A stretch of 37,149 nt of DNA, taken from the UHGV virus genome UHGV-0075871; one strand, 5' to 3'. The notes under the pieces are model-generated. The model was given only the letters and a program-made list of their open reading frames with translations. It had not been told where the DNA came from and did no database searches. Source of the DNA: a virus. The position numbers and the translations under genes are program-made. This document shows positions 3,557 to 35,126 of this stretch, in pieces (positions within the stretch are counted from its first letter, which is position 1; every line of letters begins with the position of its first letter).

Positions 3557-3646
3557 TTACCTCGGTCTGTTACCGTTGAGGTAATGATTATGCGTATTTG
3601 GTTTGGTGTCAATAGATATGAGTTAAAAAAATTACCCTTAAGGTAA
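3557..3646. promoter_or_regulatory. OL-like operator cluster: TTACC-N5-GGTAA palindromes
   Basis: Perfect palindromes TTACCGTTGAGGTAA (3570..3584) and TTACCCTTAAGGTAA (3632..3646) plus a half-site at 3557..3561, between the repressor gene terminator and the first leftward gene. Confidence 0.6.
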
Positions 3647-3703: not shown

Positions 3704-4288
3704 TTATTGTTTGTTTTTTTCGTTCTGGTTGATGACAAATTCAATGTAACTTTCGATCTTTGCTTTCTCGGTTTCGGGTAACAATGCGTAGCGCGAGCGG
3801 TCATAGTTGATGGTCGCAGGGTCGTGCGGGTGAATCAGTAATTCATAGCCGTGACGCCCGAATGCGGATGCAACATTCTCCAGGGTGGAAATGGAAACGC
3901 TGACCTCATTGTTTAACAGGCGGCTGATTGTCACCTGGGCGACGCCGGATGCGCGGTGAAGTTTTCCCTGTGTTGAAAGGTCGCGGCTTTCGCTCATCCA
4001 GCGTTCCAGGTTGTGAGCCGCCAGCTGACCAATGTCGCTTGGGCCGACAGGCTGAAAACCTTCCTGAGAAAGCGAGCGATCGATATCAAGCCAGTTACGG
4101 GGTTTATTGGCGGCAGCTTCAATTTTTCGCGCAACCTGGTCGCCGATAACCTTCTTGCCAAGAGCCCAGCGGTTTACCAGATTTGCCTGAGTTCCAAGTT
4201 TTTCTGCCATCCGCGTCTGAACACCATTGAATTCACGGTCGATCAAGTCGTTGAGATTTTGCCTGCGGACGTCCTGGATACTTTTCAT
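3704..4288 (-). CDS. phage immunity repressor (CI-like, two HTH motifs, no S24 peptidase domain)
   Basis: 194 aa; two HTH-like segments (TRMAEKLGTQANLVNRWALG and VAQVTISRLLNNEVSVSIS); divergent from a Cro-like gene across an operator-rich spacer; no G-D-S-M / Ser-Lys autocleavage motif. Confidence 0.7.
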   Translation of the reverse strand: MKSIQDVRRQNLNDLIDREFNGVQTRMAEKLGTQANLVNRWALGKKVIGDQVARKIEAAANKPRNWLDIDRSLSQEGFQPVGPSDIGQLAAHNLERWMSESRDLSTQGKLHRASGVAQVTISRLLNNEVSVSISTLENVASAFGRHGYELLIHPHDPATINYDRSRYALLPETEKAKIESYIEFVINQNEKNKQ

Positions 4289-4343: not shown

Positions 4344-4406
4344 TTACCCAACAGGTAAATGCACCCCATAGGTAACTATCCTTGATTTTTGTTACCTTAT
4401 GGGTGA
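4344..4406. promoter_or_regulatory. OR-like operator cluster between repressor and Cro-like genes
   Basis: TTACCCAACAGGTAA (4344..4358, perfect), GCACCCCATAGGTAA (4361..4375, variant), TTACCTTATGGGTGA (4392..4406, variant): three tandem sites as in lambdoid OR. Confidence 0.6.
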
Positions 4407-30303: not shown

Positions 30304-30843
30304 TTACCAAAACTTGTACCACGGGGATTTATCCTTCAATGGGCAATCCTTCCATCGTGTGGCCAACCATTCATATTCTTTAAAATATGTGTTTATGTTT
30401 TCTTTTTCTCTAATGGCTTGTATAAGAGGTAGCGCAATCTGATAGTTATTTACAACGGAGCTGTAAAATACTTCCTTAATCATGGTCTCATCATAAGTTT
30501 TCCGCTTCACGCTCACAGCCATGCGTTCGTAGAAACCTAGACAGTAAATTATTTCTCTCTTCTCTGTCTTTTCTTCATCCGTAAGATCAGCCTGCCCATT
30601 GCTTGGATACATATAAGAGCGGAATGATTTGTTCGACTCGTGAATGCGGCGCATAGTAGATAGGCCTTTCTTATAATCTACATCAAACCTGCTTTCACCA
30701 AGGAATACTGAAGTGTGTACTTTTCTCGCTGTATTTACATTATAAATAATAGTAGCGATAGCTATGAACAAGCCAAGCGAAACCGCGACTGCACTTACGA
30801 TTTGAGCCACAGCCATGGCAAATTGCATTTCTTCACTTAACAC
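30304..30843 (-). CDS. moron: single-pass membrane protein, function unknown
   Basis: 179 aa; N-terminal hydrophobic helix (MAVAQIVSAVAVSLGLFIAIATIIY) then a soluble Lys/Glu/Tyr-rich domain; lower GC than neighbours; opposite strand; own leader with a 10-codon ORF and hairpin. Confidence 0.65.
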   Translation of the reverse strand: MLSEEMQFAMAVAQIVSAVAVSLGLFIAIATIIYNVNTARKVHTSVFLGESRFDVDYKKGLSTMRRIHESNKSFRSYMYPSNGQADLTDEEKTEKREIIYCLGFYERMAVSVKRKTYDETMIKEVFYSSVVNNYQIALPLIQAIREKENINTYFKEYEWLATRWKDCPLKDKSPWYKFW

Positions 30844-31059: not shown

Positions 31060-31752
31060 TCAGAAGAACCCAGCCTTGTCGTTGATGTACTCCGCGTGCG
31101 TCTGGATATCACGCAGGCATTTGCTCACACCAACGATGTAGCAGAACATGGTGGTCAGCTCCGCCGCCGCGCCCGATACGTCGTGCCCGTCGTCCTGTAA
31201 CTGGTTCAGCAGATTCATCAGCAGTGAGTTCTCCGTCAGGCCGAGAACACCAGACGGAGAATGAATCAGGCTACGGTAGCCGGGCTTCAGTGGAGCACTG
31301 TAGGTTTTGTTCTCTATCTTCATCGCCTGCATTACTGCTGACGCCGTGGCGTTGGCTACCTGGTCGGCAACCATCTTTATGCGTTCTTCCTGCGGTAGCG
31401 AGTTTTTAATGTAACTTCCGGTGCGGCGGATCTGAGGAAGAACCTCGCCTGTAACCCATTCAAGAAATCTGAATGCTCTCGTTCCCTCAGTCATTGCCTC
31501 TTTGCAACGCAGAATAAGGATGTAGAGACCTGATTCTGAAACGATGGATAGTTCTTGTATTCCACCAGGGGTCTGTATTGAATACAGCCCCTTTTTGTTC
31601 CAGCCTTTTTTATCAAGTTTTCTCGCTTGTGTAACATCAATATTCAAAGCATTGCACACATCTTTGGTGACAAACCAAGGTTCTCCGTCAATCATGAACA
31701 TACGGATCTGGCAGGATGACTCAAAGGAAAAGATGGAAGGTTTGGTATTCAT
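31060..31752 (-). CDS. antirepressor-type protein with Bro-N-like N-terminal domain
   Basis: ORF track 31060..31797; start moved to MNTKPSIFSF with AAGGTG RBS; N-terminal FESSCQIRMFMIDGEPWFVTKDVCNALNI resembles Bro-N; C-terminal ~85 aa paralogous to the small gene at 32067..32324. Confidence 0.7.
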   Translation of the reverse strand: MNTKPSIFSFESSCQIRMFMIDGEPWFVTKDVCNALNIDVTQARKLDKKGWNKKGLYSIQTPGGIQELSIVSESGLYILILRCKEAMTEGTRAFRFLEWVTGEVLPQIRRTGSYIKNSLPQEERIKMVADQVANATASAVMQAMKIENKTYSAPLKPGYRSLIHSPSGVLGLTENSLLMNLLNQLQDDGHDVSGAAAELTTMFCYIVGVSKCLRDIQTHAEYINDKAGFF

Positions 31753-31778
31753 GGCGATCACCTTTGTAGTTAGGTTAA

Positions 31779-31811
31779 TCACCACCGCTGAGACCAATCA
31801 GATGGTGGTGA
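31779..31811 (-). other. stem-loop in the 5' leader of the Bro-N gene with hexaloop GACCAA (plus-strand sense)
   Basis: TCACCACCGCTGA-GACCAA-TCAGATGGTGGTGA; imperfect 12-bp stem; same loop sequence as the hairpin at 31949..31964. Confidence 0.4.
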
Positions 31812-31904
31812 ACTGTGCAGAGTTGGTCTTACCGGCTACAAAGGAACCCGGCGCACCTTTCGGTGCCCCCACACAGCCCACCATAGAATAGGTGCGCTTT
31901 ACAC

Positions 31905-31994
31905 ATAAAAAAAACCGCTTATGCGGCATATGTGCCTCTGTAGTAATCCGGGAGACCAATCCCGGCACTGGATTTTGCCAGTGCCCGATTACTA
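31905..31994 (-). ncRNA. candidate structured RNA element / small RNA between the two antirepressor genes
   Basis: Outer 8-bp stem TAGTAATC/GATTACTA (31941..31948 with 31987..31994) enclosing hairpins CGGGA-GACCAA-TCCCG and GCACTGG-ATTTTG-CCAGTGC; in minus-strand sense followed by short hairpin CCGC-ATAA-GCGG and T8 (31907..31926); operator palindrome just upstream. Confidence 0.25.
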
Positions 31995-32020
31995 TGGCAC
32001 AAGAGGAGTGCGATGTAAAT

Positions 32021-32035
32021 TTACCTCAAAGGTAA
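32021..32035. promoter_or_regulatory. TTACC-N5-GGTAA operator-like palindrome
   Basis: TTACCTCAAAGGTAA between the two antirepressor-type genes. Confidence 0.5.
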
Positions 32036-32066
32036 ATATAAGCACTCCACTTGGTAATTGCAAACC

Positions 32067-32324
32067 TTATCTGGTTTGTTTTCGTAATTGTTCGGCACAA
32101 TAGTCGAGATGTGTTTGCAGATCCCGCATAGACATCTGTGAGCTGGTGACGTAGTTAATCAGTGCAGTCAGTTCGGCAAGTGGGCCATCGACATTAAATC
32201 CATCCTTATCGAGATCCCGGAGTAATTTCATCAAGTGCGATCCCTCCACCAGTGACCTGACGCCTCCCGGCGTGTGAATCCTTTCGGTAAATCCGTCTTC
32301 CAGTGGATAGTGATACCGCTGCAT
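32067..32324 (-). CDS. small antirepressor-domain protein (paralogue of the Bro-N protein C-terminus), LexA-controlled
   Basis: ORF track 32067..32342 (TTG start); likely start at the ATG (MQRYHYP...) with GGAGAAG RBS; IHTPGGVRSLVEGSHLMKLLRDLDKDGFNVDGPLAELT...MRDLQTHLDY parallels the C-terminal region of the 31060..31752 product; LexA box about 20 nt upstream. Confidence 0.6.
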   Translation of the reverse strand: MQRYHYPLEDGFTERIHTPGGVRSLVEGSHLMKLLRDLDKDGFNVDGPLAELTALINYVTSSQMSMRDLQTHLDYCAEQLRKQTR

Positions 32325-32345
32325 CTTATCTTCTCCATGCAATAA

Positions 32346-32361
32346 CTGTATATTTATACAG
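32346..32361. promoter_or_regulatory. LexA (SOS) box
   Basis: AACTGTATATTTATACAGTA: CTGT-N8-ACAG with an AT-rich spacer, near-consensus. Confidence 0.7.
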
Positions 32362-32400
32362 TATCAAATAATTTGTTTGCTATCCAGCACGTTTTGCAAA

Positions 32401-32415
32401 TTACCATAAAGGTAA
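32401..32415. promoter_or_regulatory. TTACC-N5-GGTAA operator-like palindrome
   Basis: TTACCATAAAGGTAA in the divergent spacer between the small antirepressor gene and the tailspike gene. Confidence 0.5.
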
Positions 32416-32519
32416 TATCTATTGGTATTTATAGTCTTTCTATACATATATGGTTTTTCAGGTAATAGAATAACCAGATATGCGGCGCAACGGGTGCTGC
32501 GACTATCTGGAGATTTAAC

Positions 32520-35126
32520 ATGACGGTCTCAACCGAAGTTGACCACAACGAATACACCGGTAACGGCGTTACGACATCGTTTCCGTATGCCTTTAGGGTT
32601 TTCAATAAATCTGATTTGATTGTGCAGGTTGTTGATATTCATGAAAATATCACCGTACTGACTCTTGATACTGATTATATAGTTACCGGGGCCGGAGGAT
32701 ACAATGGTGGAAATGTAATATTGTCGAAGGCGTTGGCCAATGGCTATAAGATTTCTATATCACGAGAGCTACCGGTTACACAGGAAACTGATCTGCGCAA
32801 TCAGGGTAAGTTCTTTGCGGAAGTGCATGAGGATGCTTTTGATAAGCTAACGATGCTGATCCAGTTAGTCAAAAGCATGGCTCGGCTGGCTCTTCGTAAA
32901 CCATCATTTAGTGCCACTTACTACGATGCACTCGGCAATCGTATTCGTAACCTTGATGATCCATTATTTCCTCAGGACGCTTCCACGAAGAAATATACAG
33001 ACTCATCTATCAAAGGAGTTATTAACAGCAACATATCTAAAACACTCCGCTTCCCTGAGATAGTAAGCGAAATGGCATCAGCATCTTCTAGGGCAAACTC
33101 AATTCAGGGGTATGACAGTTTAGGACGTCCTGTTCCTATTTTTTCAATTACAGATACTGCTGATTTATGCCTTAAGCTAGCAAGTGTCAACGGATCATCA
33201 TACGTTGGTACCAGATTTGGTGATACACTTGAACAGACGCTAAATAGTACTCAGTTCATTAATTCCTGCAGTTTAGTCACATCTAAAACACTTGAGAGAT
33301 TATCAAGGCCTAACTCAAAAATAGTGTTAGTTGGTGACAGCTTAAGTGCCCCATATAATATAAGCACAGTGGATCGATCAAGCATTTTTGCCGCTCATCT
33401 TAAGAGAGTTTTGCAAGAGAAATTCCCAAGTTCTACTTTATTTAACAGAGCAATTGGTGGAATGAGGTACTATGACCTTGGAAAAGATACACCAGCAATT
33501 ACTTCTTATAACTCACAGTACCCATGGTATTCAGACACGAACAGACGCTGGATTGATTACATTCGTGATATTAACCCTGATGTTGTTATTATTGCTTTTG
33601 GCATGAATGACGGAGATGGTTGGGATGTTGGTAACTTCCCGCAGAAAACTTTTTTTAAATTGATGGCTGAACTGAATGATATTACTTCAATGCCTGAAAT
33701 TGTTTTTTGTACAAATATCCTCCCATCAAGTACCACAAGTGACTCTGAATTTAGCAGTTTAGAAGCTCAGAATGGACGAAACGCAATGGCAGGATGGACT
33801 CGTTCATATGCGCAGTATGTTGGCGCTGGGCTTATTGATTTTAATCGTTACTTTAATGCAGTACGTGATGGGGTTGATGTGGTTTCTGGTAATTATGTGA
33901 GGGCAACTATTTCAAAAGATGTTACATTGCCTTATGAATATGAAGATTTATCATATTCTTACTCCGTAAGGATTCAATTTGTAGATATTGAAATCCTTAG
34001 TTCTGGGATTCAATTCCAATTGTCTTCATACCATAATAATTTCATTAACTTGAAATATACAGGCTCTGCCTTTGAAACCACACACTATACTGCATCAACA
34101 GGGACTGTAGGTGTTTTTATGCGCAATATTGTTAAATTATCTGCTCCACTTGGTTTGTTTTCAGTTGAATTTAAACTTATTGGAAACTTCGTTGAGATAA
34201 CACTTAACGATAACGAAATACTATTCAGTAGTAATATTGTAAGGTTTGGTGGTTTATTTTATCCTCGCATCGGTGGTTCAGGGAACTGCAAAATTGATAT
34301 GCAGCCGATGATTCCTGTTAAGCTTAAAAAGTCAATGACTAACGAAGATGTTTATTCGCCTGGTAGTGGTAATAATAAGAATCACCCAACAGCTTATGCA
34401 AGCTCTAGAATATATCCACCGGTTCTTGATGGATGCTTTAATAGCATTTTCTTTAAAGAGATGAAAACTGATGGCGTTTACCTTGATTTTATCACAGGAC
34501 AATATGAAATAGTTAATAGCTATTCTCCCAACTTATCTAAAAAAGGAAACGTATCTGATATTCTTTCCTTTGTTTCAGGTGACCTTATTTATTCCTATTC
34601 ATCAGATATTTTAGAAGGGGCTGTTTTTGGTTCCGCAAATAAATGCTATATAGACAGTAATAAGTTTTTGCTAGCTAATCAGAAATTAAGAGGGATTACT
34701 GTTATTGTTGAGGGGAAACAATATGCAGGTGGAGAATTGGCGTATTATGTCACACTTGGTGAGGGGTTAACTGGTAACCGTCTGCATATGACAATAACCG
34801 ATAATAATATTCCACGCTGTACTGCAGTGATGAATGGAGTATCTTCTGATCTTATCGGTTCAAATTCGTTTCAGGTAAACCCATCTATTTTTCACAAACA
34901 TACTAGTTCAATCGATGTCAATAATGGAATTCATTCTATGGCATACGATAATCACATGGCCTCTGGTAACATTGCAGAAACTGAAATATCTGAACTTACT
35001 CAGGATATTGTATCTAAAATAAAACTTGGTTATGCAAGTGAAACGACTTCTGGAGTTGATGTTGTTATTGCCAGAGTGCAGGTTATTTTTGATGGATTAA
35101 CATCATCTGGAGTTTGCAGGAAATAA
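32520..35126 (+). CDS. tailspike / tail fibre protein with central SGNH (GDSL)-like hydrolase domain
   Basis: 868 aa; conserved-looking N-terminal particle-binding region; KIVLVGDSLSAPYN (GDS block) and IIAFGMNDG (G-x-N-D block) about 80 aa apart; AT-rich distal two-thirds typical of exchanged receptor-binding modules; no clear D-x-x-H block seen. Confidence 0.75.
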   Translation: MTVSTEVDHNEYTGNGVTTSFPYAFRVFNKSDLIVQVVDIHENITVLTLDTDYIVTGAGGYNGGNVILSKALANGYKISISRELPVTQETDLRNQGKFFAEVHEDAFDKLTMLIQLVKSMARLALRKPSFSATYYDALGNRIRNLDDPLFPQDASTKKYTDSSIKGVINSNISKTLRFPEIVSEMASASSRANSIQGYDSLGRPVPIFSITDTADLCLKLASVNGSSYVGTRFGDTLEQTLNSTQFINSCSLVTSKTLERLSRPNSKIVLVGDSLSAPYNISTVDRSSIFAAHLKRVLQEKFPSSTLFNRAIGGMRYYDLGKDTPAITSYNSQYPWYSDTNRRWIDYIRDINPDVVIIAFGMNDGDGWDVGNFPQKTFFKLMAELNDITSMPEIVFCTNILPSSTTSDSEFSSLEAQNGRNAMAGWTRSYAQYVGAGLIDFNRYFNAVRDGVDVVSGNYVRATISKDVTLPYEYEDLSYSYSVRIQFVDIEILSSGIQFQLSSYHNNFINLKYTGSAFETTHYTASTGTVGVFMRNIVKLSAPLGLFSVEFKLIGNFVEITLNDNEILFSSNIVRFGGLFYPRIGGSGNCKIDMQPMIPVKLKKSMTNEDVYSPGSGNNKNHPTAYASSRIYPPVLDGCFNSIFFKEMKTDGVYLDFITGQYEIVNSYSPNLSKKGNVSDILSFVSGDLIYSYSSDILEGAVFGSANKCYIDSNKFLLANQKLRGITVIVEGKQYAGGELAYYVTLGEGLTGNRLHMTITDNNIPRCTAVMNGVSSDLIGSNSFQVNPSIFHKHTSSIDVNNGIHSMAYDNHMASGNIAETEISELTQDIVSKIKLGYASETTSGVDVVIARVQVIFDGLTSSGVCRK

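What the first reader, a model, noticed from the sequence alone, without database searches (positions are those of the whole stretch)
32325..32415. Near-consensus LexA box on a small antirepressor-type gene, combined with a repressor lacking an autocleavage domain
AACTGTATATTTATACAGTA (32344..32363) sits about 20 nt upstream of the 85-aa gene at 32067..32324. The immunity repressor (3704..4288) shows no S24 peptidase motif (no G-D-S-M, no Ser-Lys dyad region). Together this predicts SOS induction through a LexA-repressed antirepressor rather than RecA-stimulated repressor self-cleavage, as in coliphage 186 Tum or Gifsy prophages. An operator palindrome at 32401..32415 in the same spacer suggests dual control by LexA and the phage regulator.
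Basis: partly seen in the sequence, partly recalled or inferred. Interest (0 to 1): 0.65.

Follow-up and report, generated by a model that had tools for sequence, protein, structure and literature searches.

The report
LexA-controlled antirepressor of phiV10-like prophage
This is the E. coli (phiV10-type) copy of a prophage induction switch already worked out in Salmonella phage SPC32H, in which DNA damage lifts LexA off the promoter of a small antirepressor that then disables a repressor unable to cut itself. It is real but ordinary.

Summary
AACTGTATATTTATACAGTA (32344-32363) matches the E. coli LexA consensus at 18 of 20 positions. It is the only such site in the window and lies 19 nt upstream of an 85-aa gene (32067-32324, minus strand). 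That protein is 87% identical to the Ant chain of PDB 5D50 (Salmonella phage SPC32H, Rep-Ant complex). The repressor (3704-4288) is a full-length homologue of the 5D50 Rep chain and is 100% identical to the phiV10 repressor. It has HTH domains only, with no S24 peptidase. The LexA box is conserved at the same position in nine Uetakevirus relatives. SPC32N, the clear-plaque sibling of SPC32H, differs there by one C-to-A change in the box. Tum and Gifsy are analogues only.

The palindrome at 32401-32415 is real. It is the family-wide operator ATTACC-N5-GGTAAT (14 sites here against 0.6 expected, annotated as repressor sites in the epsilon15 record). Its geometry fits the divergent tailspike promoter better than ant.

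Not in the finding: directly downstream of ant lies a P1/Gifsy-1-type IsrK-C4 antisense-RNA module. It controls a Bro-N protein whose C-terminus is Ant-like.

The parts
32344..32363 (.). LexA (SOS) box AACTGTATATTTATACAGTA; reads TACTGTATAAATATACAGTT in the ant orientation.
   Evidence: 18 of 20 to consensus, unique in the window, 27.3-bit PWM score. It is conserved in 9 relatives, and SPC32N carries a C-to-A change in the ACAG arm.
32358..32386 (-). Putative ant promoter: -35 TGGATA (32386-32381), 17-nt spacer, extended -10 TG (32366-32365), -10 TACTGT (32363-32358). The LexA box would cover about -12 to +8.
   Evidence: Inferred from the sequence and from invariant columns CTGGA.A ... TG.TA.TGT in alignment A1. 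The simple promoter scan did not call it. The TSS is not mapped.
32067..32324 (-). ant: 85-aa antirepressor, orthologue of SPC32H Ant. RBS GGAG at 32336-32333.
   Evidence: PDB 5D50_E 'Anti-repressor protein', E 3.5e-46. 87% identical to the SPC32H ant CDS. PHROG 450, E 1e-47.
3704..4288 (-). rep: 194-aa lysogeny repressor of the SPC32H Rep type, with two HTH-type domains and no S24 peptidase.
   Evidence: 5D50_A 'Repressor', E 4e-42, residues 1-190. Pfam HTH_3 only. 100% identical to the phiV10 repressor, 42% to SPC32H Rep. No GDSM motif and no AG/CG dipeptide.
32400..32416 (.). Repressor-type operator palindrome ATTACC-ATAAA-GGTAAT in the ant-tailspike spacer.
   Evidence: motif enrichment. 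Invariant arms in 9 relatives. The homologous epsilon15 site is annotated protein_bind 'repressor / lysogeny'.
32443..32471 (+). Putative tailspike/lysis promoter: -35 TACATA (32443-32448) and -10 TAGAAT (32466-32471), with a conserved operator half-site GGTAAT at 32461-32466.
   Evidence: Inferred from invariant columns TATTACC / AACC / ATATG in A1. The geometry, a full site at about -70 and a half-site at about -20, mirrors P_R. Not tested experimentally.
3570..3646 (.). O_L operator pair (3570-3584 and 3632-3646) flanking P_L (TTGACA-17-AATCAT, minus strand).
4344..4406 (.). O_R operator pair (4344-4358 perfect; 4392-4406 with one mismatch) overlapping P_R (TTGTTA-17-TATTAT) between rep and the cro-like gene.
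32021..32035 (.). Operator palindrome just downstream of the ant stop codon. It overlaps the -10/+1 of TTGCAA-17-TATATT and abuts the -35 of TTTACA-17-CATAGT, the promoter whose predicted start coincides with the isrK 5' end.
31908..31984 (-). IsrK-like sRNA with an intrinsic terminator (31927-31914 plus a T run). It carries a1 UUGGUCU (31959-31953) and b1 CUACAGAGG (31943-31935).
   Evidence: Rfam RF01394, 74.7 bits (gathering score 50). Terminator. Complementarity read.
31801..31888 (-). C4-type antisense RNA. b' CCUUUGUAG at 31844-31836 and a' AGACCAA at 31829-31823.
   Evidence: Rfam RF01695, 78.6 bits (gathering score 45), full-length model match.
31060..31752 (-). Second antirepressor gene: Bro-N domain protein (230 aa from ATG 31752) whose C-terminal ~80 aa are homologous to Ant. 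Its Shine-Dalgarno region carries b2 CUACAAAGG (31770-31762), and a2 UUGGUCU lies at 31797-31791.
   Evidence: Pfam Bro-N, E 2e-13. BLASTP against Ant: 43% identity over 74 aa, E 3e-16. PHROG 130 'anti-repressor Ant' and PHROG 450. Sequences.

Best explanation
The window is a phiV10-type Uetakevirus (epsilon15-like podovirus) prophage of E. coli. It carries the SPC32H-type antirepression switch.

In the lysogen, Rep (3704-4288) holds the operators ATTACC-N5-GGTAAT at P_L, P_R and the heads of the other transcription units. Host LexA sits on the box at 32344-32363, which overlaps the -10/+1 region of the ant promoter.

DNA damage activates RecA and LexA cleaves itself, so ant (32067-32324) is transcribed. 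By homology with the 5D50 complex, Ant tetramers bind the C-terminal domains of Rep. This splits the DNA-binding Rep tetramer into dimers and releases it from the operators without proteolysis, and lytic transcription starts.

Shown here: the box, its uniqueness and conservation; the homology of both proteins to the solved complex; and the absence of a peptidase domain.

Inferred from the SPC32H work: LexA binding, Ant-Rep binding, and the non-cleavage of Rep in this particular phage.
For: - Ant is homologous to 5D50_E 'Anti-repressor protein' (E 3.5e-46, residues 2-84). It is 87% identical to the CDS annotated 'ant: anti-repressor protein' in SPC32H.
- Rep is homologous to 5D50_A 'Repressor' over residues 1-190 (E 4e-42).
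- Pfam finds only HTH domains and no S24. There is no GDSM motif or AG/CG cleavage dipeptide.
- The LexA box is 18 of 20 to consensus, unique, and scores 27.3 bits against 10.8 for the next best site.
- Alignment of the ant-tailspike spacer from 9 Uetakeviruses shows the box at the same position in all of them. SPC32H and SPC32N differ there by a single C-to-A change in the ACAG arm.
- Synteny is the same in SPC32H, epsilon15 and phiV10: ant diverges from the tailspike gene.
- Literature held in the library. LexA-controlled antirepressors that inactivate non-cleaved repressors are cited for Salmonella phages, including Kim & Ryu 2013 (PMC7380047). Rep is a DNA-binding tetramer that is dismantled by tetrameric Ant (PMC9638917; bioRxiv 10.1101/2025.11.27.690993).
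Against: - Nothing was tested biochemically for this phage.
- Rep here is only 42% identical to SPC32H Rep, while Ant is 87% identical. The Ant-Rep interface is therefore assumed, not shown, to be conserved.
- The ant TSS is not mapped, and the consensus promoter scan did not call a promoter there.
- A second, LexA-independent antirepressor gene lies next door. Ant may therefore not be the only route to induction.
- The primary SPC32H papers could not be read in the library. Details of their experiments rest on my recollection of the abstracts.
Confidence: 0.9

Rival explanations
1. Genuine dual control of ant. Rep (or the Cro-like protein) bound at the 32400-32416 palindrome also regulates the ant promoter, either co-repressing it with LexA or activating it from an upstream position, so that ant fires only in lysogens under SOS.
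For: The palindrome is a bona fide operator-type site. It is invariant in 9 relatives and keeps a nearly fixed spacing to the LexA box. It abuts a TTGCAA hexamer (32399-32394) that could be an alternative -35, which would put the operator centre at about -44. The same abutting arrangement occurs at the isrK promoter.
Against: The TTGCAA hexamer and its -10 are not conserved in the Enterobacter and Klebsiella relatives, whereas TGGATA-17-TGnTACTGT is. Relative to that promoter the operator is centred at about -57, outside the core promoter. The same palindrome plus the conserved half-site at 32461-32466 reproduces the P_R geometry (-73/-25) on the divergent tailspike promoter (-70/-20). SPC32N has an identical palindrome, yet a single LexA-box change is reported to give constitutive Ant (phenotype from my own knowledge of Kim & Ryu 2013).
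Confidence: 0.2
2. The neighbouring Bro-N/Ant-like protein (31060-31752), under IsrK/C4 RNA control, is the physiologically dominant antirepressor of this phage, and the small LexA-controlled Ant is redundant or accessory.
For: The Bro-N protein carries an Ant-like C-terminal domain (43% identity). In the related phage vB_EcoP_ZX5, which has an identical repressor, over-expression of its Bro-N antirepressor lowered lysogeny about 1000-fold (PMC9782041).
Against: The Bro-N module is absent from SPC32H, epsilon15, BUCT554 and BUCT711, while ant plus its LexA box is present in every relative examined. No LexA box precedes the Bro-N gene. C4/IsrK modules are known as anti-immunity or stress modules rather than SOS sensors (PMC4825925).
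Confidence: 0.07
3. Classical induction: Rep is inactivated by RecA-stimulated self-cleavage, and the LexA box and small gene are irrelevant to induction.
For: None found. This is only the textbook default for lambdoid repressors.
Against: There is no S24 peptidase domain. There is no catalytic-motif or cleavage-site dipeptide. The full-length homology is to a repressor whose solved structure has HTH and tetramerisation domains only (PMC9986798).
Confidence: 0.02

Closest known systems
Salmonella phage SPC32H Ant/Rep antirepression system (Kim & Ryu 2013 J Virol; Kim et al. 2016 PNAS; PDB 5D50, 5D4Z)
   Same: Same genus (Uetakevirus). The gene order is the same, with ant divergent from the tailspike gene. 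Ant is orthologous (87% identity) and so is Rep (full length, 42% identity). The LexA box is at the homologous position overlapping the ant promoter, and the operator consensus ATTACC-N5-GGTAAT is the same.
   Different: The host is E. coli, and Rep is of the phiV10 immunity type (100% identical to phiV10, only 42% to SPC32H). Downstream of ant, SPC32H has only a terminator, while this phage has an IsrK-C4-Bro-N antirepressor module and a DUF4760 gene. In E. coli records the gene is still annotated 'hypothetical protein'.
Coliphage 186 Tum and Gifsy-1/-3 GfoA/GfhA (LexA-repressed antirepressors; Shearwin 1998, Lemire 2011)
   Same: The logic is the same: a LexA box on the antirepressor promoter, a non-cleavable repressor inactivated by protein-protein binding, and an antirepressor gene far from the immunity region (PMC7380047).
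   Different: No detectable sequence relationship. Ant hits no Pfam or NCBIfam family and has no DinI-like domain. The phage morphotype and the repressor fold are different. These are analogues, not family members.
P1 immI (c4-icd-ant) and Gifsy-1 isrK-orf45-anrP modules. These apply to the neighbouring gene, not to the finding itself.
   Same: Rfam C4 and isrK match at full length and above the gathering scores. The C4 a'/b' elements are complementary to a1/b1 in the IsrK-like RNA and to a2/b2 over the Shine-Dalgarno of a Bro-N antirepressor gene. A repressor operator sits on the module's promoter, as Op51 does in P1 (P1 detail from my own knowledge).
   Different: Here the regulated protein ends in an SPC32H-Ant-like domain. 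The module also sits immediately downstream of a LexA-controlled ant gene with no intervening terminator.
Lambda cI / LexA-type S24 autocleaving repressors
   Same: The role is the same (lysogeny maintenance, operators at P_L and P_R), and there is an N-terminal HTH.
   Different: No S24 peptidase domain, catalytic Ser/Lys region or cleavage site. The C-terminal part is a second HTH-like domain plus a tetramerisation/Ant-binding domain (PMC9986798).

Membership tests
SPC32H-type Ant/Rep antirepression module | Small (~86 aa) antirepressor homologous to SPC32H Ant | tested here: met
   5D50_E E 3.5e-46. 87% identity to the SPC32H ant CDS.
SPC32H-type Ant/Rep antirepression module | Repressor homologous to SPC32H Rep over its full length (N-terminal DNA-binding domain plus C-terminal Ant-binding/tetramerisation domain) | tested here: met
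   5D50_A E 4e-42, residues 1-190 aligned. 5D4Z C-terminal fragment E 4e-20. 68 invariant columns spread over both domains in 6 relatives.
SPC32H-type Ant/Rep antirepression module | LexA box overlapping the ant promoter at the homologous position | tested here: met
   Alignment A1. Box score. The SPC32H/SPC32N difference lies in the same box.
SPC32H-type Ant/Rep antirepression module | ant located between the virion-structure genes and the divergently transcribed tailspike gene, far from the immunity region | tested here: met
   ant is about 28 kb from rep in the window.
SPC32H-type Ant/Rep antirepression module | LexA binds the box. Ant binds Rep and releases it from DNA. Rep is not cleaved during SOS. 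| not testable with these tools
   This needs EMSA, pull-down and western blots. It is inferred from the orthologous system only.
Coliphage 186 Tum family | Sequence homology to Tum (DinI-like C-terminal region) | tested here: not met
   No Pfam hit other than a sub-threshold DUF724 match. No NCBIfam hit. The DinI-like nature of Tum is from my own knowledge.
Gifsy GfoA/GfhA antirepressors | Sequence homology to GfoA/GfhA | not tested
   Their sequences were not retrieved. The PHROG and PDB assignments point to a different family.
S24 (LexA/cI-type) autocleaving repressors | Peptidase_S24 domain with a Ser-Lys dyad and an Ala-Gly/Cys-Gly cleavage site | tested here: not met
   No S24 hit at E<=0.1. 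No G[DEN]SM motif and no AG/CG dipeptide in Rep.
P1 immI / Gifsy-1 isrK-anrP antisense-RNA-controlled antirepressor module (neighbouring locus 31060-32063) | C4 antisense RNA and IsrK/a1b1 RNA upstream of a Bro-N/Ant-type gene, with C4 complementarity over the gene's ribosome-binding site | tested here: met
   RF01695 at 78.6 bits and RF01394 at 74.7 bits. c4-a1b1 at 39.9 bits, below its gathering score. a'/b' complementarity to a1/b1 and a2/b2 read. Bro-N E 2e-13.

The most novel reading that the evidence does not exclude
In phiV10-type phages the known LexA-Ant switch is wired in series with a second antirepressor. No terminator was found between the ant stop codon (32067) and the IsrK-like RNA (31984-31908). 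LexA-derepressed ant transcripts should therefore carry the a1/b1 decoy for the C4 antisense RNA at their 3' end.

The IsrK-C4-Bro-N operon promoter is itself covered by a Rep operator (32021-32035), and the Bro-N protein ends in an Ant-like Rep-binding domain.

SOS would thus give a first pulse of Ant. That pulse would both relieve Rep repression and, through IsrK, relieve C4 repression of a second Ant-domain protein. The result would be a positive-feedback lock that makes induction irreversible.

In addition, Ant (87% conserved) would act across Rep types that are only 42% identical, allowing cross-induction among co-resident Uetakevirus prophages.
Probability: 0.2. Interest if true: 0.45.

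Novelty: already known. Interest (0 to 1): 0.15.

Why it matters
The practical value is mainly in annotation. The same ant-LexA-box segment occurs in 543 of 5,426 complete E. coli genomes, and in the listed top hits the gene is labelled 'hypothetical protein'. A 2022 study of a sibling phage with an identical repressor analysed only the Bro-N antirepressor and mentions neither LexA nor SPC32H (PMC9782041).

Recognising the SPC32H-type switch predicts that SOS-inducing antibiotics will induce these prophages without repressor cleavage. It also identifies which gene to delete to stabilise phiV10-based reporter or engineered lysogens. It adds nothing new in concept to prophage induction biology.

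Tried and rejected
- The primary papers could not be read. Kim & Ryu 2013, Kim et al. 2016 and Kropinski et al. 2007 were tried by DOI and PMC id and none is held. I used secondary descriptions, GenBank annotation and my own recollection, marked as such.
- The consensus promoter scan did not call any ant promoter. The promoter given here rests on conservation in alignment A1.
- An alternative ant promoter, TTGCAA-17-ACAAAT, was considered and set aside because it is not conserved outside the E. coli and Salmonella members.
- Whole-molecule RNAduplex energies for C4 against isrK and against the Bro-N translation-initiation region were only about 2 SD below shuffles and not informative. The short a/b complementarities were read directly from the sequence instead.
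- PADLOC gave no hits for Ant, the Bro-N protein, the DUF4760 protein or the 296-aa minus-strand ORF. NCBIfam gave no hits for Ant or the Bro-N protein.

Full report
**What is at the coordinates**

The sequence AACTGTATATTTATACAGTA lies exactly at 32344-32363. On the minus strand it reads TACTGTATAAATATACAGTT. It is followed by 19 nt that contain GGAG (32336-32333) and then the ATG at 32324. That ATG opens an 85-codon ORF ending at 32067.

The box matches the E. coli LexA consensus TACTGTATATATATACAGTA at 18 of 20 positions. It is the only site in 37 kb within 3 mismatches of that consensus, and none of 100 dinucleotide-preserving shuffles produced one. Two other CTGT-N8-ACAG strings exist, but they have GC-rich spacers inside genes.

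I built a weight matrix from about 20 E. coli SOS boxes written from memory, so the training set is approximate. With it the site scores 27.3 bits. That is higher than every training site, 16 bits above the runner-up in the window, and above the maximum of 18.2 bits in shuffles.

**What the two proteins are**

The 85-aa product matches one PDB sequence only. It is chain E of 5D50, 'Anti-repressor protein', at E 3.5e-46 over residues 2-84.

The 194-aa repressor (3704-4288) matches chain A of the same entry, 'Repressor', at E 4e-42 over residues 1-190. It also matches the C-terminal fragment 5D4Z.

5D50 is the Rep-Ant complex of Salmonella phage SPC32H. tblastn finds the SPC32H gene annotated 'ant: anti-repressor protein' at 87% identity and 'rep: repressor' at 42%.

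Pfam sees only HTH_3/HTH_26-type domains in Rep and no Peptidase_S24. No G[DEN]SM motif exists in any frame of the window, and Rep has no Ala-Gly or Cys-Gly dipeptide. Ant belongs to PHROG 450, which is of 'unknown function', and to no Pfam or NCBIfam family.

**What the window is**

The best DNA matches are Escherichia phages EC.W1-9, phiV10, TL-2011b and ZX5, all members of the genus Uetakevirus (epsilon15-like podoviruses). Rep is 100% identical to the phiV10 repressor.

The 741-bp ant segment occurs in 543 of 5,426 complete E. coli genomes. The listed top hits annotate the gene as 'hypothetical protein'.

**Conservation of the control region**

I aligned the ant-tailspike spacer from the window with those of phiV10, SPC32H, SPC32N, epsilon15, Tyrion, BUCT554, BUCT711 and Kp4865-1.

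- The LexA box is at the same position in all nine. The Klebsiella phages have ATGT in place of CTGT in one arm.
- SPC32H and SPC32N differ at just two positions in the 4.2-kb locus. One is a C-to-A change in the ACAG arm of this box.
- From my own knowledge of the Kim & Ryu 2013 abstract (the paper is not held), that mutation makes Ant constitutive and forces lytic growth. The same abstract states that Rep is not cleaved during SOS.
- The columns CTGGA.A, a 17-nt gap, and TG.TA.TGT are invariant. This supports an extended -10 promoter: -35 TGGATA at 32386-32381, TG at 32366-32365, and -10 TACTGT at 32363-32358. LexA would then cover about -12 to +8. This is an inference, because the consensus scan did not call a promoter there.

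**Mechanism**

By orthology, LexA represses ant. SOS-induced LexA self-cleavage releases it.

Tetrameric Ant then binds the C-terminal domains of Rep and converts the DNA-binding Rep tetramer into dimers that leave the operators. This part is described in PMC9638917, PMC9986798 and bioRxiv 10.1101/2025.11.27.690993. The LexA logic is reviewed in PMC7380047.

The steps shown here are the sequence features and the homologies. The binding events are inferred. One caveat is that Ant is 87% conserved while Rep is only 42% conserved relative to SPC32H. Sixty-eight Rep columns are nevertheless invariant across six relatives, in both domains. The interface is therefore plausibly conserved, though this is not proven.

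**The palindrome**

TTACCATAAAGGTAA (32401-32415) is real. The pattern TTACC-N5-GGTAA with up to one mismatch occurs 14 times against 0.57 expected.

The sites are almost all intergenic, at the heads of transcription units:

- two at P_L (3570, 3632), one of them sharing the last T of the -10 hexamer;
- two at P_R (4344, 4392);
- 6675 and 6737;
- 9786 and 9804, before the terminase genes;
- 12827 and 13441;
- 30973, 32021 and 32401.

The epsilon15 GenBank record already annotates seven such ATTACC-N5-GGTAAT sites as 'repressor / lysogeny', including the homologous one in its ant-tailspike spacer.

Whether that operator controls ant is doubtful.

- Relative to the conserved ant promoter it is centred at about -57, outside the core.
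- On the other strand, a conserved TAGAAT (32466-32471) with T(A/T)CATA 17 nt upstream is a plausible tailspike/lysis promoter. An invariant half-site GGTAAT (32461-32466) overlaps its spacer.
- The full palindrome would then sit at about -70 and the half-site at about -20. That is the same geometry as P_R, with a perfect site at -73 and an imperfect one at -25.
- The tailspike-lysis block is cut off from the upstream structural genes by the minus-strand ant block. It therefore needs its own repressible promoter.
- The SPC32N phenotype (my own knowledge) shows that loss of LexA control suffices for Ant synthesis even with an intact palindrome.

I give Rep control of ant about 0.2.

**Comparison with known systems**

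This is a member of the SPC32H Ant/Rep family. All four sequence-testable defining features are met.

Coliphage 186 Tum and the Gifsy antirepressors share the regulatory logic but not ancestry, since I found no shared domain. Rep is not an S24 autocleaving repressor.

The finding is therefore correct but already known. Its remaining value is that the E. coli orthologues are unannotated. A 2022 paper on the sibling phage ZX5, which has an identical Rep, tested only the Bro-N antirepressor and mentions neither LexA nor SPC32H.

**What lies next door**

This was not part of the finding. Immediately downstream of ant, on the same strand, Rfam finds an IsrK-like sRNA (31984-31908, 74.7 bits) and a C4 antisense RNA (31888-31801, 78.6 bits). 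Both are full-length matches above the gathering scores. A Bro-N domain gene follows (ATG 31752 to 31060).

The C4 elements CCUUUGUAG and AGACCAA are complementary to two sets of targets. The first set is CUACAGAGG and UUGGUCU in the IsrK-like RNA. The second set is CUACAAAGG and UUGGUCU in front of the Bro-N gene, where the first element overlaps its Shine-Dalgarno sequence. This is the P1 immI / Gifsy-1 isrK-orf45-anrP design (PMC4825925).

The last ~80 residues of the Bro-N protein are 43% identical to Ant (E 3e-16; alignment A3).

A Rep operator (32021-32035) overlaps one predicted promoter of this module. It also abuts the -35 of a second predicted promoter, whose predicted start coincides with the IsrK 5' end. 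No terminator was found between the ant stop codon and the IsrK terminator.

The module is present in phiV10, Tyrion and Kp4865-1. It is absent from SPC32H, epsilon15, BUCT554 and BUCT711.

A serial LexA-Ant to IsrK/C4-Bro-N::Ant circuit is the most novel reading that my evidence does not exclude. It is speculative.

**Verdict**

The system is already known (SPC32H Ant/Rep). Interest is low.

Noticed in passing
window 31801-32063 (minus strand): A P1 immI / Gifsy-1-type RNA module sits directly downstream of ant: an IsrK-like sRNA (31984-31908, RF01394, 74.7 bits) and a C4 antisense RNA (31888-31801, RF01695, 78.6 bits). The a'/b' elements are complementary to a1/b1 in the IsrK-like RNA and to a2/b2 over the Shine-Dalgarno of the next gene. 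No terminator was found between ant and isrK.
   Followed up: partly
window 31060-31752 (minus strand): A Bro-N domain 'antirepressor' whose C-terminal ~80 aa are homologous to the small Ant (43% identity, E 3e-16). This makes it a second protein carrying the putative Rep-binding domain. The module is present in phiV10, Tyrion and Kp4865-1 but absent from SPC32H and epsilon15.
   Followed up: partly
window 3570, 3632, 4344, 4392, 6675, 6737, 9786, 9804, 12827, 13441, 30973, 32021, 32401, 35426 (15-mer start coordinates): The operator motif (A)TTACC-N5-GGTAA(T) occurs 14 times against 0.57 expected. Nearly all copies are intergenic, at the head of a transcription unit, often in pairs 48-62 bp apart and often sharing the last T of a -10 hexamer. 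Rep therefore appears to repress every operon directly rather than through a cascade. The epsilon15 record annotates the same motif.
   Followed up: partly
window 3704-4288 versus 32067-32324, compared with loci L001-L014: Ant and Rep divergence are uncoupled. Salmonella phages have Ant 84-87% but Rep 42% identical to the window, while Enterobacter phage BUCT554 has Ant 79% but Rep 75%. This suggests mosaic exchange between the ant and immunity regions, and possibly a broad Ant specificity allowing cross-induction.
   Followed up: partly
window 13043-13119 (minus strand): A tRNA-Arg (anticodon TCT) lies in a minus-strand island between the terminase and portal genes. It is bracketed by operator sites at 12827 and 13441.
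   Followed up: no
window 30304-30843 (minus strand): A DUF4760 protein (Pfam E 8e-31) sits at the end of the minus-strand accessory block, with a one-mismatch operator site upstream (30973). It has no PADLOC hit, and it may be a moron or exclusion gene.
   Followed up: no
window 32520-35126 (plus strand): The 868-aa tailspike has the conserved epsilon15-type N-terminal adaptor. RefSeq copies are annotated as SGNH/GDSL hydrolase, and the receptor-binding part differs from those of phiV10 and epsilon15 (similarity ends about 350 bp into the gene).
   Followed up: no
L001/L002 position 1790 (SPC32H versus SPC32N): The only other difference between SPC32H and SPC32N in this 4.2-kb locus is a G-to-A change at nucleotide 14 of the tailspike coding sequence.
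   Followed up: no
Literature: PMC9782041 (phage vB_EcoP_ZX5): This published study of a sibling phage has a repressor 100% identical to the window's. It tested the Bro-N antirepressor and the repressor by over-expression, annotated the small Ant orthologue as hypothetical, and mentions neither LexA nor SPC32H.
   Followed up: yes
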